NCBI GenBank assembly: GCA_965116155.1
Contig: OZ220488.1
Span: 1,304,318 to 1,368,317 of the forward strand
Length of the DNA: 64,000 nucleotides
Direction: 5' to 3'
Source of the DNA: Bdellovibrionales bacterium
GTDB lineage: Bacteria; Bdellovibrionota; Bdellovibrionia; Bdellovibrionales; UBA1609
The notes under the pieces are model-generated. The model was not told the DNA's origin. It saw only the letters and a program-made list of their open reading frames with translations, and made no database searches. Position 1 is the first letter of the stretch, and each line of letters begins with the position of its first letter. Shown here piece by piece: positions 16,001-54,860 of the stretch. Made by a program: the position numbers and the translations under genes.

Positions 16001-16557
16001 ATTGTAGTCGACGCTGAAGTATTATCTAAACGACTGTAATTATTGTTAAATTTGTTGATATTGTGGGTTCTGTTTTTGCAGGGTTTATGGTGTTTTGAGT
16101 GAAGCTGTCTAGCGCGCAATATTACCTTGAAGCCTACGTTTGCCGTCTTGGCTAGCGCCCTGCGGGCTGCCAAGATGGCTGCACTCTAAGGTTCAAGGGT
16201 AATATTACTGGCGCTTTTATGCTTACGCCAAAAACCCTGCAAAACAAGAGGCTCTCTAGTGCACAAAATATTAACCTTGCAAAAGTTCTGCGTGTTAGCC
16301 CCTTGTGCTGAAGTATGTTCTCCGGCTGACTCTGGCTTAAGTTAGAGCGCTAGTAAAATTCTCTGAAGCAAAGCGGCGGCATCCTGACAGCCTCTGCAGG
16401 AGGCGACGATCAGGGTGCCAAGCGTCTTACAGAGAATTTTGCGACCTATAAGGGATCTGCGTGCCTGTAAGATACAGTATTAAAACCCTAATGTGGCACG
16501 AGTACGCGACAGCCGGAAGCCGGAGAACATACTTCAGTCACGACTATTGTAGCAAGC
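16001..16557. repeat. Composite palindromic repeat array, copy 1 (short form)
   Basis: Collinear with 39261-40376 by manual alignment. Terminal inverted repeats TAGTCGACGCTGAAG.. / ..CTTCAGTCACGACTA. Contains Y-type element 16103-16229 and X-type element 16342-16470. Confidence 0.85.
16103..16229. repeat. Y-type hairpin element Y3
   Basis: AGCTGTCTAGCGCGC, arms AATATTACCTTGAA / TTCAAGGGTAATATT, core CTTGGCTAGCGCCCTGCGGGCTGCCAAG, tail TGGCGCTTTTATGCTTACGCC. Confidence 0.85.
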
Positions 16558-16774
16558 ATGACAAGTATGGGTGGAGTTACCCCCCCCCTATCTTAAAATT
16601 AGGCCTAAAATTAGACCCAGGGTTAGGCGAAGGTTGAGGACTAAGGTGGGTACGGCGGCGGAGACTAGGCAAAAAAATAAAAAACGCCATAAAATTTTGC
16701 ACTTTCATACTAAAAACAGTGTGGGTATTTTTGCATAAACATTGGTAGTGTTATGCAATTTTTAAGCCCAAAGT

Positions 16775-16794
16775 TTAGAGCGCTAGCGCTCTAA
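16775..16794. repeat. Perfect 20-bp palindrome TTAGAGCGCTAGCGCTCTAA (two overlapping boundary motifs) on the scoB stop codon
   Basis: Read directly. The minus-strand reading CAA GTT AGA GCG CTA GCG CTC TAA gives the ScoB C-terminus ..QVRALAL*. Confidence 0.95.
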
Positions 16795-17434
16795 CTTGGG
16801 GGTGAATTTTGAGTGGAGCGCCAGTGGCTTGGGCTACTTGCTCAGGGCTAAGGTCTGCCGCATGTTCCATAAGTACCAGCCCCTCGCTGGGGTCGACCTT
16901 TATGTAGCCATAGTCCGAAACAATTATGTCCACACATTTTTTGCCTGTAAGCGGTAAGCGGCAAGCGGGTAAAATTTTAGGCTCACCCTTTTTATTAGTG
17001 TGGGTCATGGCCACAACAACCTTTTTGGCTCCTGCAACCAAATCCATAGCCCCACCCATGCCTTTAACCATTTTGTTAGGAATCATCCAATTAGCAATGT
17101 CTCCCTCGCAAGACACCTCCATGGCACCCAAAACCGTAATATCCACATGCCCCCCACGGATCATAGCAAAAGACTCTGCAGAAGAAAAAAACGACGCCCC
17201 CTTAACAGCTGTGACGGTTTGCTTACCAGCATTTATCAAATCAGGATCCACCTGCTCGGCAGTCGGAAAAGCCCCCATACCCAAAAGCCCGTTTTCGCTT
17301 TGTATTAAAACTTGCTTTTCGTCACCAATATAATTCGCCACCAAAGTGGGCATACCAATGCCCAAATTCACTACAGACCCAGGCTGCACAAAATCCGCTA
17401 TGCGCTCTGCAATACGCTCTCTAGATAAAGGCAC
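16775..17434 (-). CDS. scoB: 3-oxoacid CoA-transferase subunit B
   Basis: 219 aa. Conserved blocks LVNLGIGMPT, SENG, GGAMDL and KILPACRLPLTG are typical of CoA-transferase family I beta subunits. Follows the A subunit. Confidence 0.85.
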   Translation of the reverse strand: MPLSRERIAERIADFVQPGSVVNLGIGMPTLVANYIGDEKQVLIQSENGLLGMGAFPTAEQVDPDLINAGKQTVTAVKGASFFSSAESFAMIRGGHVDITVLGAMEVSCEGDIANWMIPNKMVKGMGGAMDLVAGAKKVVVAMTHTNKKGEPKILPACRLPLTGKKCVDIIVSDYGYIKVDPSEGLVLMEHAADLSPEQVAQATGAPLKIHPQVRALAL

Positions 17435-17454
17435 AGCCCATCACCTCGTAACCA

Positions 17455-18156
17455 CTAACCGCTAAGGGTTTTTTGCTCAATACGTTTTTCATAGTTTTGG
17501 CCTTGAAATATTTTTTGCACATACACCCCAGGTGTATGCACACACTCCGGGTCCAAACTGCCCACGGGCACCACTTCTTCAACCTCAGCTACAGTAACAC
17601 GTGCGCACATGGCCGCTAAAGGATTAAAGTTACGCGCCGTTTTGGCATACACCAAGTTCCCCAGTGCGTCGCCCTTTTGAGCCTTTACTAAAGCGTAGTC
17701 CGCCGTTATGGCTTGCTCTAAAACACACTCGTAGTCTTTGCCGTCTCGCGTAAATACACGGGTCTCCTTAGCCTCTGCCACCTTAGTGCCTGCACCAGTG
17801 GGAGTAAAAAAAGCCCTAATCCCAGCTCCGCCTGCCCGCATGCGTTCTGCCAAAGTGCCCTGAGGGCAAAACTCCACCTCTAGCTCTTTTTGCAAAAATT
17901 GTTTTTCAAACAACGCATTCTCCCCCACATAGCTTGAAACCATTTTGGCAATTTGGCGATTTTGCAACAGCAAACCCAAGCCAAAGTCATCCACCCCCGC
18001 GTTATTCGATACACACACCAGATTACGCACGCCCATTTTGACCAAAGCCGCAATACCGTTCTCGGGTATGCCACACAAGCCAAAGCCTCCAACGGCCAGC
18101 ACGGCTCCATCTTGCACTCCACTTAAGGCCTCTAAGGCATTTTGAACCAACTTCAT
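17455..18156 (-). CDS. scoA: 3-oxoacid CoA-transferase subunit A
   Basis: ORF 17455..18243. The internal ATG at 18156 (MKLVQNALEALSGVQDGAVLAVGGFGLCGIPE..) matches the family N-terminus and removes the overlap with the thiolase gene. Confidence 0.85.
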   Translation of the reverse strand: MKLVQNALEALSGVQDGAVLAVGGFGLCGIPENGIAALVKMGVRNLVCVSNNAGVDDFGLGLLLQNRQIAKMVSSYVGENALFEKQFLQKELEVEFCPQGTLAERMRAGGAGIRAFFTPTGAGTKVAEAKETRVFTRDGKDYECVLEQAITADYALVKAQKGDALGNLVYAKTARNFNPLAAMCARVTVAEVEEVVPVGSLDPECVHTPGVYVQKIFQGQNYEKRIEQKTLSG

Positions 18157-18169
18157 GCTATATAGCCCT

Positions 18170-19357
18170 CTACACCAAACTCTCCACCGCCAAGGCCACC
18201 GCCTCGCCTCCCCCAAGGCACAAGCTGCACACTCCACGCCCATTGGGTTTTTGGGTTTTTAAAATGTGCAACAAAGTCACCAAAAGCCGTGCTCCACTGG
18301 CTCCGATAGGATGCCCCAAAGCCACAGCCCCTCCGCGCATATTAACTTTTGCAGGATCGAGCTCTAGATCTTTAATTGCCGCCATGGCTACAGCACTAAA
18401 GGCCTCGTTTATTTCCCAAAAGTCCACATCTTTAGCTTGCCAACCCACAGCGTGGAGCAGTTTTTTCACCGCGCCGACCGGGGCCGTAGTAAACCACTTG
18501 GGCGCCTGAGCATGCGTTGCATAACCCACCACGCGCGCCAAAGGCTGACTGCCCCAGCTTTTGAGCCGCTCTTGAGTGGCCAGCACCACAGCCGCAGCGC
18601 CGTCGTTGATTTTAGAGGCGTTGGCAGCCGTGATGGTGCCGGCTTTATCAAACGCCGGCCTCAGGGCGGGCATTTTATCAAAGCGCGCCCTCTTGGGCTC
18701 TTCGTCCTCTTTAAGCTCTGCGGCTCTTTTAGGAGGCTCCACCAAAGCAAGCTCCTCATCAAATGCACCGCTATTTTGCGCCTTTTGCGCCCGCTCGTAA
18801 CTCGTACGCGCAAAAACGTCCTGTGCCTCACGCGTGAAGGCGTATTTTTGTACGCACAGCTCAGCCGCTTGGCCCATGTGCCAATTGTGGTAAGGATCCC
18901 ACAAGCCGTCTAACAACATGGAGTCCGGCGCCTCTACTGAGCCCATCTTGTAACCTGCTCGCGAGCGTGGCAATAGGTGCGGCGCAAGGCTCATGTTCTC
19001 TTGCCCGCCAGCAACAGCAGCCCCCTTGTACAGGCGCAAAAAATCACAGGCCATCATAACGGCCTTCAGCCCCGACCCGCAGACCTTATTAACCGTGGTG
19101 CATGCAGTGGTATCAGGCAAACCCGCTCCCAGGGCCGCCTGCCTCGCCGGTGCCTGTCCAACCCCCGCGCTCAACACTTGCCCCATAGTGCAGTCGTCTA
19201 TTGTTGCAGGGTCAGCTCCGGCGCTCTTTATAGCGGCTTTAATCGCAGCAGAACCTAGCTTTGTAGAGCTCACCTGAGATAACCCTCCGTTAAAGCTCCC
19301 TATAGGGGTGCGTTTTGCCCCAACGATAAACAGCGGAGTGTCAGGTGTGTTTGTCAT
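18170..19357 (-). CDS. Acetyl-CoA C-acetyltransferase (thiolase II)
   Basis: 395 aa. Active-site blocks VNKVCGSGLKAV, NEAFS, GGAVALGHPIGASGARL and CLGGGEAVAL. Confidence 0.9.
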   Translation of the reverse strand: MTNTPDTPLFIVGAKRTPIGSFNGGLSQVSSTKLGSAAIKAAIKSAGADPATIDDCTMGQVLSAGVGQAPARQAALGAGLPDTTACTTVNKVCGSGLKAVMMACDFLRLYKGAAVAGGQENMSLAPHLLPRSRAGYKMGSVEAPDSMLLDGLWDPYHNWHMGQAAELCVQKYAFTREAQDVFARTSYERAQKAQNSGAFDEELALVEPPKRAAELKEDEEPKRARFDKMPALRPAFDKAGTITAANASKINDGAAAVVLATQERLKSWGSQPLARVVGYATHAQAPKWFTTAPVGAVKKLLHAVGWQAKDVDFWEINEAFSAVAMAAIKDLELDPAKVNMRGGAVALGHPIGASGARLLVTLLHILKTQKPNGRGVCSLCLGGGEAVALAVESLV

Positions 19358-19463
19358 AGACAGGCCGAAACTTTACCCCTCCCTGAGCCACCATTCAAGC
19401 TATATCGCAGAGGGCCATAGAGTCCTTGAGCTGTCTAGCGCTCTAAGTTAATCTGTTGGGGCT

Positions 19464-20255
19464 ATGCCAAAAAAGAAAGCCTCCAAGCGCACAGCTGCAA
19501 AGCCAGCCCCCAAAAAAACAGCCAGCAAAACAGCCGGCAAGGCAGCTGCTAAAAAGGCTGCAAAACCTGTTCCCAAAAAAACAGCCAGCAGAACAGCTAA
19601 AAAGCCCACTAAAAAACCTAAAACTACGACATCCTCAAAGCCGGCATCCCCCAAGAAGACCTCCAAAAAGGTGGCCGCAAAAACAGTAAAAACCAAAACC
19701 CGCGCTGCAGCGCGTAAAAAGTCCTCCCCAGCTAAAAAGCGCAAAGCCTCAACTGCCAAGGCGTCAGCATCTAAGGCGCAGCATAAGAAAAAAATCGCCC
19801 TGCCTCCCGGGCTTAAGAAAAAGCTTATCGTCAAAAAGCGATCTCGCAAAAAGCTAAAAAAGCTTGCACCTAAGGCTCCGCCAAAGCCTGCCAAGCGGGC
19901 GAATATATTTTTTAGCCAAGAGATTCAAATGGAAGAGGAGGTTGTACTAACCGATGCCGATGGGCGCAGGTACTGCCGTGTGCCCGACTGCGACAGGTCG
20001 GCGGAGGTGGGAGAGTACTGTAGGTTTCATTATTTGTCTTTGTGGGACAGAATTCAGACCAAAAAACAAATCATCGAAGGCGGGCATTTGGATCAATACA
20101 TTGAAAAACTCACTCTCAACTATCCGCTAAAAAGCATGGTGTCCTTGTTAAAAGACCTACGCAGCACTAAGGAGTTTAACAGCTTGGTGCATGATATGGG
20201 AATTGTGCGGGCATCGGATGAACGGTCCGAGAGCATGGGGCGAGAGGATGAGTAA
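19464..20255 (+). CDS. Lysine/alanine/proline-rich histone-H1-like basic protein with Cys/His C-terminal domain
   Basis: 263 aa. The first ~150 aa are KK(T/A)A(S/K)K-type repeats. The C-terminal ~100 aa are globular with C-x5-C ... C-x2-H (YCRVPDCDRSAEVGEYCRFHY). Confidence 0.55.
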   Translation: MPKKKASKRTAAKPAPKKTASKTAGKAAAKKAAKPVPKKTASRTAKKPTKKPKTTTSSKPASPKKTSKKVAAKTVKTKTRAAARKKSSPAKKRKASTAKASASKAQHKKKIALPPGLKKKLIVKKRSRKKLKKLAPKAPPKPAKRANIFFSQEIQMEEEVVLTDADGRRYCRVPDCDRSAEVGEYCRFHYLSLWDRIQTKKQIIEGGHLDQYIEKLTLNYPLKSMVSLLKDLRSTKEFNSLVHDMGIVRASDERSESMGREDE

Positions 20256-21195
20256 GCCTGAAAACCTTGTTATTTTAGGTTCTGGCCCTGCGGGTTTGAC
20301 GGCGGCTATTTACGCGGCAAGAGCGAACCTTGCGCCCTTGTTGTATGAGGGCGAAGAGCCTGGGGGGCAGCTCACTACGACTACTGATGTAGAAAATTAC
20401 CCCGCCTTTCCGCAAGGAGTGCAGGGCCCTGAGATGATGCGGCTTATGCGGGAGCAGGCCGAGAGGTTTGAGACACGTTTTCGTACGGTTAATATTAGCA
20501 AGGTGGATTTAAGCCAAAGGCCTTTTCGGTTGTGGGAGGAGGGTGGCAAGGAGCCTGTGCAAACCAAGAGCCTTGTGATCTGCACGGGAGCTAGTGCCAA
20601 GTACTTAGGCTTGGCTAACGAAAAACGCCTGCTGGGGCGTGGGGTGTCGTCTTGTGCCACATGCGATGGTGCGTTTTTTAAAAACCAAAAAGTCTGCGTA
20701 GTGGGAGGTGGAGACACGGCCATGGAGGAGGCTTTGTTTTTAACGCGCTTTGCAAGTGAGGTGGTGCTAGTGCACCGTCGGGGGGAGTTTAGGGCCTCTA
20801 AAATTATGAGCGATCGTGTAAAGCAAAGCTCTAAAATTAAAATTCTATGGCACACACAGGTGGTGGATGTTTTGGGCGAAAAAGAGGTAGAAGCCGTGTG
20901 CGTTAAAAACTCTGACAAGAACGAAGACCACACCCTAAAGGTGCAGGGAGTGTTTATTGCTATTGGGCATTCGCCCAATACGGCAATTTTTAAAGATCAG
21001 CTCAAGGCGAATGCTCAGGGGTATTTAATAACGCAGCCTAAAAGTACGCACACTTCGGTCGAGGGTGTGTTTGCAGCGGGGGATGTACAGGATCCTACAT
21101 ACCGGCAGGCCATAACGGCTGCGGGCTCGGGCTGTATGGCGGCGATGGATGCCGAGCGTTGGCTTGAGTCGCACTCTTGTGCACCAGTTGGGTAA
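20248..21195 (+). CDS. trxB: Thioredoxin-disulfide reductase
   Basis: ORF 20191..21195. The ATG at 20248 gives MSKPENLVILGSGPAGLTAAIYAAR (FAD GxGxxG). Redox-active CATCDG. NADPH site VVGGGDTAMEEA. Confidence 0.9.
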   Translation: MSKPENLVILGSGPAGLTAAIYAARANLAPLLYEGEEPGGQLTTTTDVENYPAFPQGVQGPEMMRLMREQAERFETRFRTVNISKVDLSQRPFRLWEEGGKEPVQTKSLVICTGASAKYLGLANEKRLLGRGVSSCATCDGAFFKNQKVCVVGGGDTAMEEALFLTRFASEVVLVHRRGEFRASKIMSDRVKQSSKIKILWHTQVVDVLGEKEVEAVCVKNSDKNEDHTLKVQGVFIAIGHSPNTAIFKDQLKANAQGYLITQPKSTHTSVEGVFAAGDVQDPTYRQAITAAGSGCMAAMDAERWLESHSCAPVG

Positions 21196-21201
21196 GTAAG
21201 A

Positions 21202-29636: not shown

Positions 29637-29659
29637 TAGCGCTTTAATGGAGATTAGAC

Positions 29660-30526
29660 ATGGCAGACAAAATTAGCAGCGTACTGGTTGTGGGGGCAGG
29701 TCAGATGGGGCGCGGCATTGCTCAGGTGGCGATGCTAAAAGGTTGCCAGGTGCAGCTTTGCGACACCCAGCCGCAGCAGTTGGAGCAAGCTAAGCAGTTT
29801 ATAACCAAGCAGTTGGATCGCGCGGTGTTAAAAAACAAAATCACCAAAGCGGCTCAAGAGCAGGCTTTGGGTAGGTTGAAGCTTTTGCCTCAGCTAAAGT
29901 CTTTAAAAGAGGTGCAGCTAGTGGTAGAGGCAGCAACGGAGCGCCTGGATGTTAAGTGGAGCATCTTGCGTGAGCTAGAGCCTTTGTTGGGTAAGGATGT
30001 TACGGTGGCCTCTAATACTTCTTCTATTTCTATTACGCATTTGGCTTCGGTGTTGCAGCATCCTCAGCGCATGCTGGGCGTGCACTTTATGAACCCGGTG
30101 CCGGTTATGCCTTTGGTGGAGGGCATTAGTGCTTTGCAAACCGGATCGGAGCATGTCACTAAGGCCCGCAAGTGGGTGGAGGAGGTATTAGGCAAAACCT
30201 GGGTACTTTCAAAGGATGTGTCGGGCTTTGTAGTAAACCGTATACTGATGCCTATGATTAACGAGGCGGTGTATGCATTGCATGAGAGGGTGGCGCCTAG
30301 GGAGAGCATCGACACCGCCATGAAGCTGGGCACGCGGCACCCTATGGGGCCTTTGGAGCTTGCGGATTTTATAGGTTTAGATACTTGTTTGTTTATTTTA
30401 GAGGTGTTGCACCAAAATTTGGGTGAGGATAAATACCGCCCCTGCCCTTTGTTGCGTCAGTATGTGCAGGCGGGTTGGTTAGGCAAAAAGTCTGGCCGGG
30501 GGTTTTATACCTATGATGGTTCTTAA
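29660..30526 (+). CDS. hbd: 3-hydroxybutyryl-CoA / 3-hydroxyacyl-CoA dehydrogenase (NAD-dependent)
   Basis: 288 aa. Rossmann motif VLVVGAGQMGRGIAQV. SNTSS. C-terminal PMGPLELADFIGLD. Confidence 0.85.
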   Translation: MADKISSVLVVGAGQMGRGIAQVAMLKGCQVQLCDTQPQQLEQAKQFITKQLDRAVLKNKITKAAQEQALGRLKLLPQLKSLKEVQLVVEAATERLDVKWSILRELEPLLGKDVTVASNTSSISITHLASVLQHPQRMLGVHFMNPVPVMPLVEGISALQTGSEHVTKARKWVEEVLGKTWVLSKDVSGFVVNRILMPMINEAVYALHERVAPRESIDTAMKLGTRHPMGPLELADFIGLDTCLFILEVLHQNLGEDKYRPCPLLRQYVQAGWLGKKSGRGFYTYDGS

Positions 30527-33754: not shown

Positions 33755-33859
33755 GCGTTACTGAAGAGTATATATTTTACACGGCAGGTTTTTTAGTGGC
33801 CCCTTTTACCTTATTCTATAACCTTAAGAAGAAGGTTTTAGTTTTTGTAAAAAAGCGGG

Positions 33860-34549
33860 GTGATTTGTATGAGACGTTTGTTTTTGTTCATGGTGGTATT
33901 TTTTTATGCCCTAACTTCTGTAGCTGAGGAAAGCAGCACAAGTGGTGCGCAAGAAAGCGCTCCTAAGAGCCAAAGCCTTGAGCCTCCCCAAATAGATCAT
34001 CCTTTGGTTCAGCACGGTGCAGATCCGGTGTTAAAACTTTTGGAACAAGTCAATCCAATAAAAAAACCCACGCCCCTCCTCCCTAATGCCAAGCCAGATG
34101 TAGCAACAGCTTCAAATCCTATTTTGAATATGCATAAGCAACGCGGCAATACAAAAATCGCCAAAACACTTAATGCTTGCATGGGTTTAAATGTGGGGGT
34201 TTTGTCTGCCGTTACCCTTGCAGTAAATATTTTTAAAATGGTGCATGCACGCAGTTTGCACCCTTTTTTGAACCTTCCAGAAGCTCTTGCATTTGGCTTT
34301 TTTGCTGCAGGAGGGGCGTTTTTTGTAGAGTATGTTATGGGAGTGCCGTCTCTTGAAACATGTGAAAAAATAAGGCAGCAACTAACATCCTGGCTCCATA
34401 TAGAAAACGGGCAAGTAAGCGCCACCTTTGCAGACCCTCATACGGGTGAAACTATAAAAGTGCGTTGTCTGGCTGAGTCTGACCCCTCTAACACCACAAC
34501 CGGCATAAAAGTTTTAGAAAAAACCTGTACCATCATAGACTCCAGATAG
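33860..34549 (+). CDS. Secreted/two-TM membrane protein, unknown function
   Basis: 229 aa with a signal peptide (..LTSVAEE), two Gly/Ala-rich TM helices and a Cys-containing C-terminal domain. The last 9 codons lie in the 30-bp direct repeat DR-L. Confidence 0.5.
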   Translation: MICMRRLFLFMVVFFYALTSVAEESSTSGAQESAPKSQSLEPPQIDHPLVQHGADPVLKLLEQVNPIKKPTPLLPNAKPDVATASNPILNMHKQRGNTKIAKTLNACMGLNVGVLSAVTLAVNIFKMVHARSLHPFLNLPEALAFGFFAAGGAFFVEYVMGVPSLETCEKIRQQLTSWLHIENGQVSATFADPHTGETIKVRCLAESDPSNTTTGIKVLEKTCTIIDSR

Positions 34550-34552
34550 GCC
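34523..34552. repeat. 30-bp direct repeat DR-L (ACCTGTACCATCATAGACTCCAGATAGGCC) flanking the AbiE cassette
   Basis: Matches 36448-36477 at 28 of 30 positions (read directly). Overlaps the stop codon of 33860..34549. Confidence 0.9.
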
Positions 34553-34735
34553 TGTATGCTTACGCCCAATTAAAGTGCTAGTAAAAACTCTTTAAGCAGC
34601 AAGTGCAGTCCCAAGAGCAGCTTCTTAAGCTGCTCTTGGGACTGCACTTACTGGCCAAGTTCGTTTTACTAGCACTCTGATGCTTACGCACTTTATCTCA
34701 GAATATTGGACTGGCGCTCTAATCTTGTGCAAGTA
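34553..34735. repeat. Hairpin repeat array R7 including a perfect 23-bp-stem palindrome (34601-34649)
   Basis: ATGCTTACGC, TTAAAGTGCTAGTAAAAACTCTTTAAGC. Palindrome AAGTGCAGTCCCAAGAGCAGCTT-ctt-AAGCTGCTCTTGGGACTGCACTT. CTAGCACTCTGATGCTTACGCA. CAGAATATTGGACTGGCGCTCTAA. Confidence 0.9.
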
Positions 34736-34818
34736 CTTGAAATTATGTGGTTTTTTCAACAAATTGCATGAATTTTTAATAAAAATATTGACTTTTGCGC
34801 CGCCATCGACGATACTAA

Positions 34819-35439
34819 ATGTACGAAGGTGTAGGTATGAGGGCGCAAGCAGGCCTAGATAAAATGAAGCAATTCTTGACCTCTGGAAAGGTCTACAGAA
34901 GGTCCGATTTTTTAGGCATGACTTCTAGTGTGGATAGAAGCCTAAAGGCCTTAGTTGGGGCGGGTTTTTTAAAAAAGCTGCAACATGGCCTATATTTAGC
35001 GCCTAAGCAGACTATCTTTGGAGAAGCTATGCCTGATGAAGAGGAGCTTTTAAAAAAGTTTTTAAATGATGATCACTTTGTTGTTTATGGACCTAGTAGG
35101 TTCAATGCTTTAGGCCTTGGAACGACACAGCTCTACAATAAAAGAGTGGTATTTAATCGCAAGCGCCATGGGGCAATGAGGCTTGGTGATAGAAGTTATG
35201 ATTTTTATCGTTGGCGAGAGGCTCCTAAGGTTTTATCGAAAGAATTTCTTCTGGTTGAAATGTTTAATAAGTTTAGTGAATTGGCAGAGGATTATGATGC
35301 AGTTGTTAATAACCTTAAAGCCAAGCTCAGTGAATTTAATTCAGCTAAGCTGCATAATGCTCTTAATAGGTTTGGTACGAGATCGGCACAGAAAAAATTA
35401 AGGCCTCTGCTAGAAGAAAATAAAAATGTACCTGCATAA
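34819..35439 (+). CDS. AbiEi-like antitoxin (type IV TA, DUF6088-like winged-helix protein)
   Basis: 206 aa. N-terminal wHTH-like segment (GKVYRRSDFLGMTSSVDRSLKALVGAGFLKKLQHGLYLAP) resembles AbiEi-type antitoxins. Overlaps the downstream AbiEii gene by 14 nt. Start uncertain (ATG 34819, 34837 or 34864). Confidence 0.6.
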   Translation: MYEGVGMRAQAGLDKMKQFLTSGKVYRRSDFLGMTSSVDRSLKALVGAGFLKKLQHGLYLAPKQTIFGEAMPDEEELLKKFLNDDHFVVYGPSRFNALGLGTTQLYNKRVVFNRKRHGAMRLGDRSYDFYRWREAPKVLSKEFLLVEMFNKFSELAEDYDAVVNNLKAKLSEFNSAKLHNALNRFGTRSAQKKLRPLLEENKNVPA

Positions 35440-36394
35440 TCATGAGAACTTTAAGGAATTAGTCGAACTAGTTGCTAAAGAGCAGGAGATTAATGACCCT
35501 TCTTTTGTTGAGAAGGACTACTGGATTATGCATTACCTGTATGGGTTGTCACACTTTGGGCTCGATATGGCTCTTAAGGGAGGAACCTCTATTTCAAAAG
35601 CCTTTAATATCATTCATCGTTTTTCAGAAGATATTGATATAAAGATTATTCCCAATAATGAGAGGGTGGGTTTTTGTGTTTATACGGACAAGAACCACAA
35701 TAAACCTAAGCATCGAGAAAGTAGGAAAAAATACTTTGACTGGCTAGCCAAAGAGTTAAAATGCAGCATTGATGGCATTTTCGATGTTACTAGAGACGGG
35801 GCTTTTGATGATGAAAAATATAGAAATGGTGGCATTCGTTTAATCTATGAAACAATGTTTGCGCCAAACCAAGCGTTGAAAGAGGGCATCCTTTTAGAGG
35901 TGGGTTTTGATAAAACCACTCCCAATATGGAAAAAGATATTTCCTCATGGGCCTATGACAAGGGCGTTAGTATTCTAGCAGACAAAGGCTTAAAAGATAA
36001 TAGGGCAAAAGGTGTGATTTGCTATGATCCACGATATACTTTTGTTGAAAAGCTTCAGGCCATTGTGACTAAGTATGCGCTTTATAAGAAAGGCAAAAAT
36101 CATGGCAAATGGCCGGTTAATTTTTTAAGGCACTACTATGATATTTACTGCCTTTTAGACTGCAAAGAAGTCCAGGGCTTTATTGGGACTGATGATTATG
36201 AAGAGTATAAAAAAGCAAGATTTCGTAAATACGATACAGTGATTAAAAATTGCGAAGGATTTGCGCTATCCGACGAAGAGGAACGAAAAATTTTTGAGGA
36301 TCATTATCTAAAATCCTCTGCACTTTACTACAAAGGTCAAATACCTTTTGAAGACATTTTAAACCGCATACAATCGTATCTTGAAAGGCTTTAG
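35426..36394 (+). CDS. AbiEii/AbiGii-family nucleotidyltransferase toxin (type IV TA)
   Basis: 322 aa. Family signature LKGGTSISKAF..HRFSEDIDI (NTase G[GS] ... DxD). C-terminal helical domain. AT-rich. Confidence 0.75.
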   Translation: MYLHNHENFKELVELVAKEQEINDPSFVEKDYWIMHYLYGLSHFGLDMALKGGTSISKAFNIIHRFSEDIDIKIIPNNERVGFCVYTDKNHNKPKHRESRKKYFDWLAKELKCSIDGIFDVTRDGAFDDEKYRNGGIRLIYETMFAPNQALKEGILLEVGFDKTTPNMEKDISSWAYDKGVSILADKGLKDNRAKGVICYDPRYTFVEKLQAIVTKYALYKKGKNHGKWPVNFLRHYYDIYCLLDCKEVQGFIGTDDYEEYKKARFRKYDTVIKNCEGFALSDEEERKIFEDHYLKSSALYYKGQIPFEDILNRIQSYLERL

Positions 36395-36447
36395 TTTCGG
36401 TTTCTATGACAGTGCAACCTCACTCCCTTAGACGATATGGACCCTTT

Positions 36448-36477
36448 ACCTGCACCATCATAGACTCCAGATAAGCC
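36448..36477. repeat. 30-bp direct repeat DR-R (ACCTGCACCATCATAGACTCCAGATAAGCC)
   Basis: Matches DR-L at 28 of 30 positions. Followed by ..CAGAATATTGGGCTAGCGCTCTAA, which carries the stop of the convergent gene. Confidence 0.9.
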
Positions 36478-36495
36478 GCCCCGCAGAATATTGGG

Positions 36496-37320
36496 CTAGC
36501 GCTCTAATTGTATTGGGATGCCTCTTTTTTTGCAAAATGCCTTGGTATCTTCAAGGTTTTCAGTACGGTACTCAGATTCCGGTTTGCTGCTCTCAAAGGC
36601 AAAATACTTGGGGCAAATAAGGCGGTGGGTGAGCTCTCTTACATGCTCTACACACTGTTCGTGGTTATAAAATTTGTCGTTTTTTTCTCTTAAAGTAAAG
36701 CTTGTAAAGCTAAAACCTCTATGGGCAAAGAACTCTCTAGCATATGCAGGAGATGCGAGATCGGGGCTAGGCACCAAATCTAAGAGCTTGTACCTGAAAA
36801 ACTTTGCTGTGTTGTCCTGCATTAGAAAGAAAAAATTAATAACAGAATTAAGGGATTTTGAGGCACAAACATCACCGCTTAAAAATAAAAATCTCGAAAA
36901 CTCATGGTACGAACCAAGGCTTGTGTGTATCAAAAAACTCATGTGCTGTCGCAAGTTAGAATAAAAGCTCTTTGACTCAGGCGCATTAGGATTTTGCATG
37001 TATTGCCTATAGCTTTCTGATAAATGGGACTCCATAAAATTTACGGCAGCAGCTCCCCCCTCTTTAGAAAACACACTCAGAAAATCCAAAGCCAATGCGT
37101 TTTGAGGCCACTTATTGGCATAGTCTAGCAGCGCCCTAGTAGCACGTTTTTTGTAGATGCCTTGCATGTTTGAAATAGTTTTGAAAACAGTCTTAGCGCG
37201 CGGGTTGCTTCGCCAAGCCTTTTTGGCGGCTTTTTTGTTGAGTATAATATCACTGGCATTAGCACTTGCCACCGTACCCGATCCCAAAACTAATAGCAAA
37301 ATTAAACCTAATGCTCGCAT
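36496..37320 (-). CDS. Secreted protein, unknown function (divergent from metzincin 1)
   Basis: ORF 36496..37419. The ATG at 37320 gives a signal peptide (MRALGLILLLVLGSGTVASA). AT-rich. The stop TAG lies inside CTAGCGCTCTAA (36496-36507). Confidence 0.5.
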   Translation of the reverse strand: MRALGLILLLVLGSGTVASANASDIILNKKAAKKAWRSNPRAKTVFKTISNMQGIYKKRATRALLDYANKWPQNALALDFLSVFSKEGGAAAVNFMESHLSESYRQYMQNPNAPESKSFYSNLRQHMSFLIHTSLGSYHEFSRFLFLSGDVCASKSLNSVINFFFLMQDNTAKFFRYKLLDLVPSPDLASPAYAREFFAHRGFSFTSFTLREKNDKFYNHEQCVEHVRELTHRLICPKYFAFESSKPESEYRTENLEDTKAFCKKRGIPIQLER

Positions 37321-37491
37321 CTTTGATCCCTCCCTATTTTGTTGTCGTTGTGACTTTGTATTTAAAAAAACATCAAACTGCATGCTGCATCGTCCCATCC
37401 TGCTGAGGGCTCCCCGCATTGCGTCAACAAGGCCTAAAAAAAGCTTAAAAAGCTGCTATTTTTTGGTGCTGTCTTTTAAAAGTAAAGTTCC

Positions 37492-38274
37492 ATGCTAAAA
37501 AAATACCGTCTTGTACTTATGGCAGTGGCAGTGCTTTTTGTAGAAGCCGTGCAGGCGAAAGAGCCATACTGCGCATCGCCGGATATCACGCCTACGTTTT
37601 ATGGCGGCACCCATGCAGTGGCCCGATATGTAAAACTCATAGGGGGTATCGTTTTTTATGTGAGTCCTACTTTAGACAAGCGTTTTCATGAAGACATAAA
37701 AGCAGCAGCTAAAACCTGGAATGAGCACCTGCCTCAAGGCGCCCAAATTGCTCTTACTTTTTCACAAGCTAAATGGCGCAGTAAAATAAAAACACAAAGC
37801 GGCAAAGCAATGGCGATCATCCTAGAGCATGCTGGCGGCGTACTGCAACGCTTGCTGCGCACAGACTCACCTAATCTGCTAGAGGATCATAGTGACTTCT
37901 TGCCTGGTGGTACCATAGGCTCTGTAGAGATAGACCCTGCGCCCCCGTTGTTGCGCAAAAATCTTGAAGATATTCTCGCATACGCGATACCTTTTTTATC
38001 GCAGATTTTTATTAACAATGTTGATCATCAGTTTTATGTAATGCAAAAAATAGACGCATTCCAAGACAAGCAGCCCTTTTACGGAACCATACTCCATGAA
38101 ATGGGGCATACCCTAGGCCTAGACCACAATGACCACGACCCTAACAGCGTAATGTCTCGGCAAACATCAAGGCTGGCGCGCTTGAGTGACTCTGACATTA
38201 GGGCGATCCGCTGTGCTTATGGCATGGGCCCTCCTCGACCCTCTTTAAAGTCTTTTGCGGTGCCTGCCCCATAA
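37492..38274 (+). CDS. Secreted metzincin zinc metalloprotease (matrixin/M10-like), paralog 1
   Basis: 260 aa with a signal peptide. HEMGHTLGLDHNDHDPNSVMS (HExxHxxGxxH plus Met-turn). Conserved N-terminal KEPYCASPDITP and C-terminal SDIRAIRCAYG are shared with the two paralogs. Confidence 0.8.
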   Translation: MLKKYRLVLMAVAVLFVEAVQAKEPYCASPDITPTFYGGTHAVARYVKLIGGIVFYVSPTLDKRFHEDIKAAAKTWNEHLPQGAQIALTFSQAKWRSKIKTQSGKAMAIILEHAGGVLQRLLRTDSPNLLEDHSDFLPGGTIGSVEIDPAPPLLRKNLEDILAYAIPFLSQIFINNVDHQFYVMQKIDAFQDKQPFYGTILHEMGHTLGLDHNDHDPNSVMSRQTSRLARLSDSDIRAIRCAYGMGPPRPSLKSFAVPAP

Positions 38275-38374
38275 ACAACTCCTTAAACACATAAACAATA
38301 GGATTTGACATAGGTTTATGTGGTGCTCTACAAGAGTTGGTTAGAAAACACTTTTCTAGCAAGGAGCCAAGATT

Positions 38375-39016
38375 ATGCAGATTGGGCGCAAACTTTTAAC
38401 ACACGGCGTTTTGGTGCTGGTTTTTGGCGTAGCGGGGTTAAGCCCAGCAGCACAGGCTGAGCCTGTTGAGGGTTTGAGCAAGCACGCTGTAGCCTACGCA
38501 TATATGCAGCGCGTGCTTGAGCAATGCGCTGAAGATGCAGCTGTAGACTTGGAGCAAGCGCGCAAGAATGTGGGCGCGCTCACATCTTTAGGAGGCTTTT
38601 ACGGTGCTGCGGTGGCCTTGCTGATCTCTGGGTTTGTGACAGATTTTAAGCCCTTCGTGTGGGGTGTGCCCGTGAGTGCTGCGGTGGGGTTTGTTGGAGG
38701 TGGTTTTGCGGCATATTTTCTCTTTAGGGGGCAAGTTGATAAGCATGCAGCCTCAAGTGTCTTGGGGGAGCAGGCTCAGGCCTACCCAAGGTGCCATGGG
38801 CTTTTTGAAGTGACTTTAGAAAGTGGCAGTGTGTTTTTACAAGAGCGCGGAGGACCTTTTGGTATGCGGTGCCTTTTGGATTTGGATGTTGAGATGGATC
38901 TTTCCAGCTTGCCTGATAATACAGGTTTATTGAAGCAAAATGTTTCTTCTGTAGGCAGCTTAGAAAACACCATACTCCCACTGCCCATCCAGTACGAAAC
39001 CTGCGAGTTAATTTAA
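38375..39016 (+). CDS. 213-aa signal-peptide + two-TM protein with Cys-containing C-terminal domain (metzincin-associated partner, copy 1)
   Basis: Signal peptide (..SPAAQA-EP) and two Gly-rich TM helices. C-terminus ..CHGLFEVTLESGSVFLQE..MRCLLDLD..LPLPIQYETCELI. Paralog of 49952..50593, which has the same length. Confidence 0.6.
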   Translation: MQIGRKLLTHGVLVLVFGVAGLSPAAQAEPVEGLSKHAVAYAYMQRVLEQCAEDAAVDLEQARKNVGALTSLGGFYGAAVALLISGFVTDFKPFVWGVPVSAAVGFVGGGFAAYFLFRGQVDKHAASSVLGEQAQAYPRCHGLFEVTLESGSVFLQERGGPFGMRCLLDLDVEMDLSSLPDNTGLLKQNVSSVGSLENTILPLPIQYETCELI

Positions 39017-39369
39017 AAAGTGCGTAAGCTGTATAGGTCGTAAAAACTCTTTAAGGCTTACGTTTCGCCCCCTTACATGACACCCACTACGGGGGCCAAG
39101 GGGGCTTCACTTACTGCTTAAAGAGTTTTTACTAGCGCTTTAATTGGGCGTAAGCATCAGAGTGCTAGTAAAACAAACTTGGCCAGTAAGTGCAGTCCCA
39201 AGGCGACCATACTCCCGTCAAAGCCCCGTGCATTGAGTAAACTCAAGTTAGAGCGCTGTGGCTTGCTATTCTAGTCGACGCTGAAGCACTGTCTAAACAC
39301 CTGTAATTGTTGTTAATTTTGTTGATATTTGGGGTTCTGTTTTTGCAGGGTTTTGTGTGTTTTAGGTGA

Positions 39370-39810
39370 AGCTGTCTAGTGCACAAAAATGCCTCAGGCA
39401 GGCCCACTTGTCCCGTAAGGATAAAAGCGCCAGCAAAAACACTTTGATCAGAGACGCAGACACATTGGCAGCCCCTGCAAGGGGCGCCAGCCAAGGTGGC
39501 AAGCGAGGCTCCCATTCAAAGTGTTTTTGCGCGCTAGACAGCTATCAACGCGCCGGTAGCTTTGGACGATCTGTAGGTCCAAAGCGTACACACTCTCGTA
39601 GATGGCCCGCGCCCAAGGTGCGTAAGCATAAAAGTGGCCCCTTGAAATCTTGGGCGGATAGCGAAGCCACCTGCGCCCCTTTATGGGGTGCTAAGCAGGT
39701 GGTAAGCGGAGAGCCCCAAAATTTCAAGGGAAAACTAGATAGCTACCGGCGCTATCAGATAGACTGCGTAGGGCTGAAGTCATTTTTGTTGGCACTTTTA
39801 TGCTTACGCC
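39370..39810. repeat. Y-type element carrying two nested insertions (filled form of the 128-bp element at 55053-55180)
   Basis: Same termini and arms as 55053-55180 (AGCTGTCTAGTGCACAAAAATGC.TCAGG ... GCTGAAG.CATTTTTGTTGGCACTTTTATGCTTACGC) but 441 bp long. Confidence 0.8.
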
Positions 39811-39948
39811 AAAAACCTGCAAAATAAGCGGCCCTCTAGTGCACGGAATATTAACCTTGCAGAGGTTTTGCGTGTTAGCCCCTTGTGCTGAAGTATGTTC
39901 TCCGGCTGACTCTGGTGTAAGTTAGAGCGCTAGTAAAATTCTCTGAGG

Positions 39949-40081
39949 TAGAGTGCGTAAGCATAAAAGTGTTAGTGAGGGCGCCCTGGCCAGAGAGCGC
40001 AGCCTGCTGACACACCTTTAGGTGTGCAAGGCAAGCGGTCTAAGCCAGGGTGCCCTCACGCGCTGGATAAAGCGGCGGCGC
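39949..40081. repeat. 133-bp hairpin element, copy b
   Basis: 2 mismatches to 10962-11094. Absent from the corresponding position of composite copy 1 (about 16368). Confidence 0.9.
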
Positions 40082-40215
40082 GCTGATAGCCCCAACGGGG
40101 CGACGATCAGGGTGCCAAGCGTCTTACAGAGAATTTTGCGACCTATAAGGGATCTGCGTGCCTGTAAGATACAGTATTAAAACCCTAATGTGGCATGAAT
40201 ACGCGACAGCCGGAA

Positions 40216-40340
40216 GTGCGTAAGCATAAAAGTGTTAGTGAGGGCGCCCTGGCCAGAGAGCGCAGCCTGCTGACACACCTTTAGGTGTGCAAGGCAAGCG
40301 GCCTAAGCTAGGGCACCCTCACGTGCTGGATAGCTTTTCC
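40216..40340. repeat. 133-bp-family hairpin element, copy c (about 6 differences, different 3' tail)
   Basis: GTGCGTAAGCATAAAAGTGTTAGTGAGGGCGCCCTGG...CTAGGGCACCCTCACGTGCTGGATAG. Interrupts CAGCCGGAA^GCCGGAGAACAT, which is intact in copy 1 at 16511-16530. Confidence 0.85.
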
Positions 40341-40364
40341 CCGAAGAACATACTTCAGTCACGA

Positions 40365-41279
40365 CTATTTTAGTACTCGCACGATTTTAACAGGGCCATG
40401 GGTTGGGATTTCAAGAAGGGCCAGCACCTTTGTGCTAGTGCCATTTATAACTTGCACCATAATACTTTTTTTTGCCCTATGGGCCTCTCGTTGCAAGGGT
40501 ACTAAGCGTTTTTCTAAACCCACCGGCAACTGCCCATGGGCTAACAAGCGTGCATCTAAACCCGCAACGCAAAATTCACGAAAACCCGGCCTCAAAGCCA
40601 CCCGCAAATCTACAAAGCCCCTTCCTGCCAGAGCTTTGGGCGACTCTTCCAGCTCCTCTAAAGACAAAGCTTCCTCCACCCTCCAGGGCCCCACGCGCGT
40701 GCGCCTTAAGTTGCTGAGCACCGCACCCACACCCAAGCGTTGTCCCAAGCTATGCGCCCACGATCTAACATAAGAGCCACTGCTACAACTGAAGCTCCAC
40801 GTAGCCTGAGGCCACGCAGAAGCCGCAAGCCGTTTTATGCCCTTAAAACACATAGGCCTCACAATGCGGGGCACATCCATCCCCTTGCGTGCCTTTTTAT
40901 ACAAAGCCTCACCACCAGACTTGACGGCCGAAAAAGCCGGCACCTCTAGCTCTACAGTGCCCGACAAGTGTTTTTGCACCACTGTATCTACATGCTCCCA
41001 ACCTGGGCTAGGAGCCTTTGCTTGCTCTAACACTCGGCCCGAAATATCCCAAGTGTCTGTTACTAAGCCAAACTGCACCTTGGCCACATAGCTTTTGTCT
41101 TGCGCCAACATATAGCGCGCCACTTTAGTGGCAGGGCCCAAAAGTACCAGCATTAAGCCTGTGGCCAAAGGATCTAAAGTGCCGCTGTGCCCTACTTGCT
41201 GAATAGACAAAGCCTTACGCACACGGGCCACCACTTTGTGACTGGTGATGCCAGCCGGCTTATCAATTAACAAAAGCAT
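40365..41279 (-). CDS. truB: tRNA pseudouridine(55) synthase
   Basis: 304 aa. LLLIDKPAGITSHKVV, catalytic GHSGTLDPLATGLMLVLLG. The stop codon lies inside the terminal TAGTCG.. of the composite repeat. Confidence 0.9.
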   Translation of the reverse strand: MLLLIDKPAGITSHKVVARVRKALSIQQVGHSGTLDPLATGLMLVLLGPATKVARYMLAQDKSYVAKVQFGLVTDTWDISGRVLEQAKAPSPGWEHVDTVVQKHLSGTVELEVPAFSAVKSGGEALYKKARKGMDVPRIVRPMCFKGIKRLAASAWPQATWSFSCSSGSYVRSWAHSLGQRLGVGAVLSNLRRTRVGPWRVEEALSLEELEESPKALAGRGFVDLRVALRPGFREFCVAGLDARLLAHGQLPVGLEKRLVPLQREAHRAKKSIMVQVINGTSTKVLALLEIPTHGPVKIVRVLK

Positions 41280-54859: not shown

Positions 54860-54860
54860 T

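What the first reader, a model, noticed from the sequence alone, without database searches (positions are those of the whole stretch)
16001..40376. Two paralogous repeat arrays show filled versus empty sites: elements insert inside the hairpins of other elements
Array 16001-16557 (557 bp) is collinear with 39261-40376 (about 1116 bp). They share the same terminal inverted repeats (..TAGTCGACGCTGAAG.. / ..CTTCAGTCACGACTA..), the same internal X-type element and the same ..GTGCTGAAGTATGTTCTCCGGCTGAC.. stem. The long copy has extra blocks at discrete points. (i) After CTCTGA(A/G)G at 39948 there is a 133-bp element (39949-40081); the short copy reads straight through (16360-16375). (ii) At CAGCCGGAA^GCCGGAGAACAT (16511-16530) the long copy carries the about 125-bp element 40216-40340. 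(iii) The simple Y-type unit of the short copy (16103-16229) corresponds to a 441-bp Y-type unit that itself contains nested elements (39370-39810). Insertions fall in or next to the loops and stems of pre-existing hairpins. This implies an active or recently active mobilisation mechanism that targets hairpin DNA of its own family.
Basis: seen in the sequence. Interest (0 to 1): 0.7.

Follow-up and report, generated by a model that had tools for sequence, protein, structure and literature searches.

The report
Nested mobile hairpin repeats between genes
Two intergenic repeat arrays in a Bdellovibrio-like bacterium differ by four cleanly inserted hairpin units of one lineage-specific repeat family; this is a nested mosaic of the REP/BIME or MITE kind, and the enzyme that moves the units was not found in the window.

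Summary
Array B (16000-16553) and array C (39267-40373) are collinear. Removing four blocks from C (39414-39597, 39619-39749, 39949-40067, 40217-40340) leaves 549 bp that align end to end with the 554 bp of B, and the host sequence is intact at three of the four junctions.

Each block is a member of one repeat family. The family has 16 full-length copies in the 64 kb. A unit is about 125 nt: a 5' tag GCGTAAGCAT (a GC-GTAA-GC mini-hairpin), then NARAGYGYYAG, then a hairpin of about 90 nt whose outer stem covaries, then one of two 3' modules.

- Block (i) is 119 bp, not 133 bp.
- The short Y unit belongs to a different subfamily. The true empty allele of the long Y unit is at 55053-55179.

Insertion, not deletion, is supported. 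The Z unit sits at the same site in two X hosts: the Z copies are 98% identical, while the host arms are 68% identical.

There is no consistent target-site duplication, the ends are not inverted repeats, and no target motif is conserved. The best guess is that units move in trans as single-stranded hairpins, REP/RAYT-like. That step is inferred; no such enzyme was found.

Self-targeting is not statistically shown, and no sister genomes were reachable. This is a new family of a known kind.

The parts
16000..16553 (.). Array B, the short copy. It is a composite of the S and Q hairpins holding X_B and Y_B, and is flanked by the 8-bp direct repeat TATTGTAG (16000-16007 and 16546-16553).
39267..40373 (.). 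Array C, the long copy. It has the same backbone as B plus four inserted blocks, and is flanked by TATTCTAG and TATTTTAG.
39949..40067 (+). Z_C1, a 119-bp Z unit inserted in the 5' arm of X_C at CTCTGAGG(TA)^AAGCGG. The boundary is ambiguous by 2 nt (TA).
   Evidence: (81 bits)
40217..40340 (+). Z_C2, a 124-bp Z unit inserted in the 3' arm of the S palindrome, inside the second AGCCGGA repeat. There is no target duplication.
   Evidence: (85.5 bits)
39370..39811 (-). Y_C, a Y-type shell (39370-39413, 39598-39618 and 39750-39811) carrying two nested blocks. It sits in the loop of the Q hairpin.
39414..39597 (+). The Y2_C unit (39411-39543 by the covariance model) plus the W module (39544-39597). 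The block is 93% identical to the reverse complement of 11120-11303.
   Evidence: (104 bits)
39619..39749 (+). V_C, a 131-bp unit nested in the apical stem of Y_C. The junction is ambiguous by 3-5 nt (GGTGC/GGCGC).
   Evidence: (80 bits)
16103..16230 (-). Y_B, an un-nested Y unit at the same site of Q as Y_C but from a different subfamily (67% identical).
   Evidence: (99.9 bits)
16333..16453 (+). X_B, an empty X-type unit (TTAGAGCGCTAG + hairpin + GCGACCTATAAGG) lying in the loop of the S palindrome.
   Evidence: 89.5 bits
39913..40150 (+). X_C, an X-type host unit interrupted by Z_C1.
16308..16327 (.). 5' arm of the S palindrome in B (partner 16518-16537, 20/20 complementary). The equivalent arm in C is at about 39889-39908.
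16511..16537 (.). 3' arm of the S palindrome, including the tandem repeat AGCCGGA AGCCGGA (16511-16524). This is the empty site for Z_C2.
16069..16093 (.). 5' arm of the Q hairpin (partner 16225-16249). Y_B sits in its loop.
55053..55181 (-). Y_D, the true empty allele of the Y_C shell. It is itself nested in the apical loop of X_D.
   Evidence: (93.6 bits)
54981..55235 (-). X_D, an X-type host (54981-55052 plus 55180-55235) holding Y_D. Its GGGATA^AAGCGG is the empty site for Z_A.
54859..54982 (+). T_D unit. It starts 1 nt after the stop codon of gene 54248-54859.
   Evidence: 107.5 bits
10935..11412 (.). Array A. It is an X_A shell (10935-10963, 11083-11094, 11304-11339) holding Z_A, W_A and Y2_A, followed by a hairpin-less unit (11339-11369) and a 5' fragment (11369-11412).
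10964..11082 (+). Z_A. It is 98.3% identical to Z_C1 and sits at the same position of a diverged X host.
   Evidence: (80.7 bits)
11120..11305 (-). W_A plus Y2_A, the same composite block as 39414-39597.
   Evidence: (111.8 bits)
14075..14197 (+). X_14 unit. Its 5' module supplies the stop codon of gene 11522-14086.
   Evidence: 75.8 bits
29515..29637 (-). X_29, an X-type unit with a full GCGTAAGCAT tag and no Z at the Z site.
   Evidence: 103.3 bits
34556..34691 (-). H_34, a near-perfect palindromic unit flanked on both sides by the 10-mer in direct orientation.
   Evidence: 70.8 bits
39027..39157 (-). H2_39, a full unit directly after gene 38375-39016. It is followed by a half unit at 39146-39225.
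   Evidence: 64.5 bits
48795..48918 (-). X_48 unit, 1 nt from the stop codon of gene 48911-49690.
   Evidence: 85.6 bits
48605..48662 (-). P_48, a short perfect hairpin with the tag variant GCGTAGCAT. Gene 47176-48633 ends inside its loop.
51916..52037 (-). X_51 unit, with no Z at the Z site. Its 5' module supplies the stop codon of gene 52024-52680.
   Evidence: 79.3 bits

Best explanation
The window comes from a Bdellovibrionales-like chromosome. Its intergenic spacers are colonised by one lineage-specific superfamily of non-coding hairpin units of about 125 nt.

A unit has four parts:
1. A 5' tag (T/G)GCGTAAGCAT, which can form a GC-GTAA-GC mini-hairpin.
2. The module NARAGYGYYAG. The frequent TTAGAGCGCTAG is a variant of this module.
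3. An imperfect hairpin of about 90 nt. Its outer stem differs between subfamilies but stays complementary. Its inner part keeps AGCG on both arms.
4. One of two 3' modules: GCGCGCTAGACAGCT or GCGRCCTATAAGG...CCTGTAG.

Units have been copied into new places as discrete blocks of 119-185 bp. Many of these places lie inside resident units, which produced mosaics three to four levels deep. Array C is array B's backbone plus four such insertions.

Insertions do not remove host bases. They make no consistent target duplication, and unit ends are asymmetric and vary by a few nucleotides. From this I infer that a trans-acting enzyme encoded outside the window mobilises the units by recognising the folded single strand. 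An HUH/Y1 transposase of the RAYT or IS200/IS605 type is the most likely candidate. Patchy gene conversion between the conserved end modules also reshuffles the hairpins.

Shown: the family, its architecture, the covariation, the clean filled and empty sites, and site re-use. Inferred: single-strand mobilisation and the enzyme class.
For: Family and architecture:
- Motif counts are far above chance.
- Each unit folds as predicted.
- In the alignment of 14 units, all 12 outer-stem pairs show compensatory changes. 91% of cells are paired against 69% in shuffles (0 of 500 shuffles reach this), and 34-47% when partners are slid.
- The mini-hairpin keeps pairing in the variant CCGTAAGG.
- The covariance model finds 16 full-length units with E no worse than 8e-14, plus fragments.

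Insertion rather than deletion:
- De-nested C aligns with B without junction gaps.
- De-nested Y_C aligns with Y_D.
- X_A without Z aligns across the site with X_D, with 17 consecutive matches TTCTGGGATAAAGCGGC.
- X_B, X_29, X_51, X_14 and X_48 all lack Z.
- Z_A and Z_C1 are 98.3% identical, while the host arms next to them are 68% identical.

Style of mechanism:
- Junction microhomology is only 0-5 nt, with no constant duplication.
- The 5' and 3' ends are not inverted repeats.
- The 14-nt left flanks differ between copies.
- A conserved 5' tag plus conserved stem irregularities parallels what TnpA(REP) needs on REPs: the GTAG tetranucleotide and a stem mismatch. TnpA(REP) also has variable cleavage points in linkers (PMC3333891).
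- Composites are copied together with their flanks, as reported for REPIN clusters (PMC3116915).
- G.T (30) and A.C (36) mismatches in stems are balanced. This argues for constraint at the DNA level rather than on one RNA strand.
Against: - No Y1/HUH transposase or any other classical transposase is in the 64 kb. The only candidate is an Rpn/YhgA-like PD-(D/E)XK protein at 14432-15427.
- The rest of the genome could not be fetched.
- Units are three to four times longer than REPs and lack GTAG.
- No fixed target sequence abuts the 5' end, unlike IS200/IS605 elements.
- The Y2+W junction is rough: 2 mismatches and 1 gap within 5 nt.
- The same site in Q holds two different Y subfamilies, and the X apex is patchy. 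Recombination explains both as well as transposition does.
- No presence/absence polymorphism could be examined. No relative carrying the family was found.
Confidence: 0.5

Rival explanations
1. No dedicated transposase is involved. The mosaics are built by recombination among dispersed palindromes: gene conversion or template switching during replication or repair. The conserved end modules (the 10-mer plus AAAAG; CTAGACAGCT; AAGCGG) serve as short homologies, and hairpin 'cassettes' are pasted from one locus into another.
For: - Y_B and Y_C occupy exactly the same junctions in Q but are only 67% identical.
- The apex of X_C resembles X_29 on one side and X_B on the other.
- Composite blocks are copied with extra flank: Z plus AAGCGGCGGCGC, and Y2 plus W.
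- Block ends shift by 5-8 nt between Z_C1 and Z_C2.
- Junction microhomologies of 2-5 nt occur at Z_A, Z_C1 and V.
- A hairpin-less unit at 11339-11369 and the fused modules at 19429-19446 look like products of palindrome deletion.
Against: - Z_C2 went into a site with no homology to its ends (0 nt microhomology) and no resident unit module.
- The strict conservation of a 5' tag, the inner irregularities and the compensatory stem changes across subfamilies suggest that a protein reads the structure.
- Sixteen full-length units in 64 kb is a very high copy number for passive recombination alone.
Confidence: 0.25
2. The units are classical MITEs moved by a DDE transposase, for example IS630/Tc1-like with a TA duplication.
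For: Z_A and Z_C1 can be read as flanked by TA on both sides: GG TA [GAGTGCG...GCTGGA] TA AAGCGG.
Against: - The 5' end (GCGTAAGCAT...) and the 3' end (...CTAGACAGCT or ...CCTATAAGG) are not inverted repeats.
- The outer stems differ between subfamilies, so there is no common terminal inverted repeat.
- Z_C2, the Y units in X_D and Q, and V have no TA or any other duplication.
- No DDE transposase is in the window.
Confidence: 0.07
3. The long copy is ancestral and the short copy arose by deletions. This is the refuting scenario the first reader named.
For: Palindrome-stimulated deletion does appear to occur in this family. Examples are the hairpin-less unit at 11339-11369, the truncated unit at 36460-36507 and the half unit at 39146-39225.
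Against: - Each missing block is a complete family unit with canonical ends.
- The host reads through without loss.
- Five independent X units and Y_D are all 'empty'.
- The 5' arm of the S palindrome has no counterpart of Z.
- The Z copies are younger (98%) than their hosts (68-92%).
Confidence: 0.04
4. The units are primarily functional RNA or DNA structures kept by selection: 3'-end stabilisers, terminators or translation-termination modulators. On this view, nesting is a by-product of duplication at gene ends.
For: - At least 8-10 units begin within 6 nt of, or overlap, a stop codon in the sense orientation. About 1.6 are expected (P < 3e-4).
- The 5' module carries stop codons in two frames.
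- REPs are known as mRNA 3'-end stabilisers (own knowledge).
Against: - Half of the units are antisense to, or far from, the nearest gene end.
- There is no G.U versus A.C asymmetry.
- No Rfam family matches.
- The simple terminator scan shows no enrichment.
- This reading does not explain insertion inside other units.
Confidence: 0.12

Closest known systems
REP / BIME elements with RAYT (TnpA-REP) of Enterobacteria and Pseudomonas (PMC3333891, PMC2817692)
   Same: - Abundant intergenic imperfect palindromes.
- A short conserved tag 5' of the hairpin, and conserved stem irregularities.
- Subfamilies that keep complementarity through compensatory changes.
- Clustering into mosaic arrays with linkers.
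- Location at gene 3' ends.
- No target duplication and variable block ends.
   Different: - Units are about 125 nt with a hairpin of about 90 nt, against 30-40 nt for REPs.
- The tag is a 10-mer mini-hairpin placed 11 nt upstream of the stem, not GTAG at the stem foot.
- There are two alternative 3' modules.
- The arrays are nested rather than alternating tandem REP/iREP pairs.
- No RAYT was seen.
REPINs (PMC3116915)
   Same: - Long hairpins of about 100 nt that behave as the replicating unit.
- Clusters in which units are copied together with their flanks.
- Persistence as diverged within-genome populations.
   Different: A REPIN is two inverted REPs, so its ends are symmetric. Here the ends are asymmetric, with the tag at one end only, except in the H-type units.
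IS elements that target REP hairpins (IS1397, ISKpn1, ISPpu9/10; PMC1525189, PMC12288879)
   Same: Palindromic repeats serve as landing sites for other mobile DNA.
   Different: In those cases the inserted element is an autonomous IS with a transposase gene. Here the guests are non-coding members of the same family.
Neisserial intergenic mosaic elements (dRS3/RS arrays) and Correia/ERIC-type MITEs (own knowledge, not tested here)
   Same: - A short conserved dyad-symmetric linker bounds variable segments in intergenic mosaics. Here the 10-mer flanks H_34 and H2_39 on both sides.
- Units of 100-150 bp that sit close to genes.
   Different: - There is no sequence similarity.
- Correia and ERIC elements have terminal inverted repeats and a TA duplication, which these units lack.

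Membership tests
REP/BIME (RAYT-associated) | Imperfect palindrome of 30-40 nt | tested here: not met
   Units are 118-133 nt with a hairpin of about 90 nt.
REP/BIME (RAYT-associated) | Conserved GTAG tetranucleotide at the 5' foot of the hairpin (PMC3333891) | tested here: not met
   The conserved 5' element is (T/G)GCGTAAGCAT followed by NARAGYGYYAG. There is no GTAG at the stem foot.
REP/BIME (RAYT-associated) | A Y1/HUH RAYT gene flanked by the repeats (a REPtron) | not testable with these tools
   None occurs in the 64 kb. The 1.6-Mb contig that holds this window could not be fetched.
REPIN | Two REPs in inverted orientation around a spacer, giving symmetric ends | tested here: not met
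   The tag is at one end only and the 3' module is unrelated to its reverse complement. Only H_34 scores on both strands, at 70.8 and 37.1 bits.
MITE of a DDE transposon | Terminal inverted repeats shared by the family | tested here: not met
   The ends GCGTAAGCAT... and ...CTAGACAGCT or ...CCTATAAGG are not complementary. The stems differ between subfamilies.
MITE of a DDE transposon | Target-site duplication of constant length | tested here: not met
   Z_C2 has 0 nt, Z_C1 has 2 nt (TA), Z_A has up to 5 nt, V has 3-5 nt imperfect, and Y in X_D and in Q have none.
IS200/IS605-derived non-autonomous elements | A fixed 4-5-nt target sequence abutting the left end | tested here: not met
   The 14-nt left flanks of 19 tagged units share no motif beyond a T or G directly before the tag.
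IS200/IS605-derived non-autonomous elements | No target duplication, asymmetric ends and structured ends | tested here: met
Any Rfam RNA family | Covariance-model match at the gathering threshold | tested here: not met
   There were no hits in the whole window. On array C the only hit at E <= 1 was a chance microRNA match at E = 0.73.

The most novel reading that the evidence does not exclude
The units are a previously undescribed class of structure-defined mobile DNA in Bdellovibrionota. A GNRA-like mini-hairpin tag plus a long hairpin with a conserved tandem G.A internal loop is read by an unknown enzyme, not necessarily a RAYT. That enzyme integrates units site-specifically into defined positions of other units and at stop codons. 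The family would then both build nested arrays and supply gene ends.
Probability: 0.2. Interest if true: 0.65.

Novelty: new member of a known kind. Interest (0 to 1): 0.4.

Why it matters
If the inference holds, this is an abundant REP/REPIN-like system in a predatory-bacteria lineage where none has been described. About 38% of the intergenic DNA in this window is made of these units. The unit architecture differs from REPs, and the filled and empty pairs are clean enough to derive insertion rules once the whole genome is in hand. The tight coupling of unit 5' ends to stop codons suggests that the elements shape gene 3' ends and possibly mRNA fate. The finding does not overturn a concept: nested or mosaic palindromic repeats, and hairpins used as landing pads, are already known.

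Tried and rejected
1. Genome-wide catalogue. It returned only single chance hits in unrelated taxa. Loci L001-L108 are junk.
2. Fetching the source genome. The exact TruB protein is in the protein collection, on a 1.6-Mb contig, but it has no retrievable DNA.
3. Sister strains. The next TruB homologue is 46% identical. The loci of relatives (L109-L113, L117-L121) contain none of the motifs and give no covariance-model hit.
4. Other collections. A longer pattern gave 3 chance hits in metagenomes and 0 in viral contigs. BLAST of array C against plasmids and phages found nothing.
5. Literature. A search for the motif strings found only primer coincidences.
6. An apparent excision footprint. The 7-bp tandem AGCCGGA repeat in the short copy looked like one, but the long copy has the same repeat with Z inside it, so I rejected this.
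7. Insertions limited to unpaired loops. Folding the de-nested hosts places the sites in a mix of loop, loop edge and stem, so I rejected this.
8. A structured RNA gene. There is no Rfam hit and no G.U/A.C asymmetry.
9. The simple terminator scan cannot model hairpins this long and was uninformative.

Full report
**Context.** The window is a bacterial chromosome segment. It has no tRNA genes and no Rfam hits at the gathering threshold. Its genes include TolQ/ExbD, AddAB-like nucleases, ETF, IcmF and an alternative-complex-III operon. The ActC protein is 80-83% identical to proteins named Bdellovibrionales or Pseudobdellovibrionaceae. The exact TruB is on record on a 1.6-Mb contig, but its DNA could not be fetched, and the next TruB homologue is only 46% identical. 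All conclusions therefore rest on the 64 kb itself.

**Check of the observation.** Arrays B (16000-16553) and C (39267-40373) are collinear. BLAST segments are 86.8-98% identical.
- I removed four blocks from C: 39414-39597, 39619-39749, 39949-40067 and 40217-40340.
- This leaves 549 bp that align end to end with the 554 bp of B.
- No gap occurs at the Z and V junctions. Identity outside the Y unit is 86-92%.
- The shared end motifs and the 20/20 complementary S stem are real.

Three details need correction.
- Block (i) is 119 bp, not 133 bp. 40068-40081 is host sequence.
- Block (ii) is 124 bp and sits inside the second copy of a 7-bp tandem repeat, AGCCGGA AGCCGGA, that both arrays carry. 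That repeat is therefore not an excision footprint.
- The short Y unit (16103-16230) is only 67% identical to the shell of the long one. It is a different subfamily at exactly the same junctions. The true empty allele of the long Y unit is 55053-55181 in a fourth array.

**What the blocks are.** All inserted blocks and most of the hosts belong to one superfamily. Written in unit orientation, a unit has four parts.
- A tag (T/G)GCGTAAGCAT. It occurs 15 times against 0.14 expected.
- The module NARAGYGYYAG. The frequent 12-mer TTAGAGCGCTAG (15 times against 0.44 expected) is this module preceded by a degenerate tag.
- An imperfect hairpin of about 90 nt.
- Either GCGCGCTAGACAGCT (types Y, Y2, V and Z) or GCGRCCTATAAGG...CCTGTAG (types X and T).

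The structure is supported as follows.
- In an alignment of 14 de-nested units, RNAalifold predicts a 12-bp outer stem in which every pair shows compensatory changes.
- 91% of cells pair, against 69% in shuffles (0 of 500 shuffles reach this) and 34-47% when partners are slid.
- The tag can fold as GC-GTAA-GC. The Y2 subfamily has CCGTAAGG, which is changed on both sides and still pairs. P_48 has GCGTAGC.
- The inner part of most hairpins carries AGCG on both arms. That gives a 2-bp GC helix flanked by A.G and G.A oppositions (read).
- A covariance model built from the alignment finds 16 full-length units (64-112 bits, E no worse than 8e-14) and about eight fragments in the window.
- The model finds none in the 127 kb of relatives' loci searched.
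- Units and fragments make up about 3.65 kb of the 9.66 kb of intergenic DNA.

**Nesting.**
- Array C reads: S palindrome > X_C > Z_C1; S 3' arm > Z_C2; Q hairpin > Y_C > (Y2+W, V).
- Array A (10935-11412) is an X shell holding Z_A and W+Y2_A.
- Array D (54859-55235) is T_D next to an X shell, X_D, with Y_D in its apical loop.

**Insertion or deletion.** Several results favour insertion.
- Each extra block is a complete unit by the covariance model.
- Host sequence is continuous across the junctions. One example is the run of 17 consecutive matches TTCTGGGATAAAGCGGC between X_A without Z and X_D.
- X_B, X_29, X_51, X_14 and X_48 all lack Z.
- The uninterrupted 5' arm of S shows the original state of the 3' arm.
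- Z_A and Z_C1 are 98.3% identical, while the X arms directly beside them are 68% identical and the B/C backbone is 86-92% identical. Z therefore arrived after the hosts diverged, twice at the same position.

The Y2+W junction is the only rough one, with 2 mismatches and 1 gap within 5 nt. Deletion also happens in this family. Examples are the hairpin-less unit at 11339-11369, the fused modules at 19429-19446 and the truncated units at 36460-36507 and 39146-39225. It does not explain the B/C differences.

**Mechanism.** Shown:
- There is no constant target duplication. Junction ambiguity is 0, 2, 3-5 or 5 nt.
- The ends are not inverted repeats.
- Left flanks share nothing but a T or G before the tag.
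- Block ends shift by 5-8 nt between Z_C1 and Z_C2.
- Composites (Z plus 12 nt of flank; Y2 plus W) are copied as blocks.
- Stem mismatches are balanced between G.T (30) and A.C (36). This gives no sign of selection on one RNA strand.

Inferred: a conserved tag, conserved stem irregularities, freely covarying stems, asymmetric ends and no duplication match how HUH/Y1 enzymes read folded single strands. TnpA(REP) needs GTAG and a stem mismatch and cuts at variable linker sites (PMC3333891). REPIN clusters are copied with their flanks (PMC3116915). I therefore favour trans-mobilisation by such an enzyme, with gene conversion between the shared end modules as a second process. Conversion would explain Y_B versus Y_C at one site and the patchy X apex. 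The enzyme class carries perhaps 35% confidence, and nested insertion as such about 85%. No transposase is in the window apart from an Rpn/YhgA-like protein at 14432-15427.

**Self-targeting and recency.**
- Eight to ten nested events out of about 25 is not significantly above the 26% of intergenic DNA offered by resident units (P = 0.09-0.32).
- Insertion points are a mix of apical loop, loop edge and stem.
- Re-use of one X site by Z and of one Q site by two Y subfamilies hints at site preference but does not prove it.
- Copies are 93-98% identical and none are identical, so activity is not demonstrably current.
- No related genome with this family exists in the collections I could search. 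The one genome-contig scan was wasted on a pattern that was too short.

**Comparison and verdict.** The system works like REP/BIME/REPIN populations and like nested MITEs, but it fails the defining features of each.
- REP/BIME: the units do not meet the size or the GTAG tag.
- REPIN: the ends are not symmetric.
- MITE: there are no terminal inverted repeats and no constant target duplication.
- IS200/IS605 derivatives: no fixed target sequence abuts the left end.

It is best filed as a new, lineage-specific family of a known kind. Interest is moderate. Full-genome data and an enzyme are still needed before anything categorically new can be claimed.

Noticed in passing
window 10935-10946, 14083-14094, 16775-16794, 36496-36507, 48898-48913, 52016-52027, 54857-54870, 63425-63436, 48606-48633, 34547-34565: The 5' module of the units (TTAGAGCGCTAG or GCGTAAGCAT) overlaps, or lies within 6 nt of, the stop codon of at least 8-10 genes in sense orientation. 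It often encodes the last residues (for example ...LER*). About 1.6 such cases are expected by chance (P < 3e-4).
   Followed up: partly
window 16000-16007 / 16546-16553 and 39267-39274 / 40366-40373: Both arrays are bounded by 8-bp direct repeats: TATTGTAG/TATTGTAG in B and TATTCTAG/TATTTTAG in C. The roughly 550-bp backbone may itself be a composite element with a duplication or terminal direct repeats.
   Followed up: no
window 16511-16524 and 40208-40216 + 40341-40345: A perfect 7-bp tandem repeat, AGCCGGA AGCCGGA, bulges the 3' arm of the S palindrome in both arrays. Z_C2 sits inside its second copy.
   Followed up: yes
window 34523-36477: A low-GC segment of about 1.9 kb (0.40-0.42 GC against about 0.49 elsewhere) carries a DUF6088/AbiEii toxin-antitoxin pair. 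It is flanked by a 30-bp direct repeat (34523-34552 and 36448-36477, 93% identical) that duplicates the 3' end of gene 33860-34549, and by family units on both sides. It looks like an inserted island.
   Followed up: no
window 14432-15427: An Rpn/YhgA-like putative transposase or recombination-promoting nuclease (PF04754, E = 1.6e-18) lies between unit X_14 and array B. It is the only transposase-like gene in the window, and no link to the repeats was shown.
   Followed up: partly
window 19429-19446 and 11339-11369: Hairpin-less 'minimal' units occur: the 5' and 3' modules fused directly (TTAGAGCGCTAGACAGCT), and the 10-mer followed by the last 19 nt of a Y2 unit. These are probably products of palindrome deletion.
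   Followed up: no
window 39019-39225 and 34556-34691: H-type units are flanked on both sides by the 10-mer in direct orientation. At 39101-39202 the order is right arm, then 10-mer, then left arm, so the 10-mer sits in the loop of an alternative hairpin. This is unexplained.
   Followed up: partly
window 37492-39016, 48911-50593, 50842-51807: There are three paralogous copies of a matrixin-like peptidase gene and two of an adjacent 213-aa gene, at 74-79% nucleotide identity. Array C begins right after one paralogue's stop codon, whereas the other paralogue has unrelated downstream DNA.
   Followed up: partly
L117:12404-12617 versus L118:12404-12457: Two assemblies of a relative are about 99% identical here (their ActC is 83% identical to the window's). 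In L117 the spacer after actD carries a near-perfect hairpin block of about 140 nt that L118 lacks. It belongs to a different repeat family, but it shows presence/absence of long hairpins in this clade.
   Followed up: partly
window 1097-1159: Three and a half tandem copies of a 16-bp unit (AAAGCCCGGTACCGTT) lie between the first two genes.
   Followed up: no
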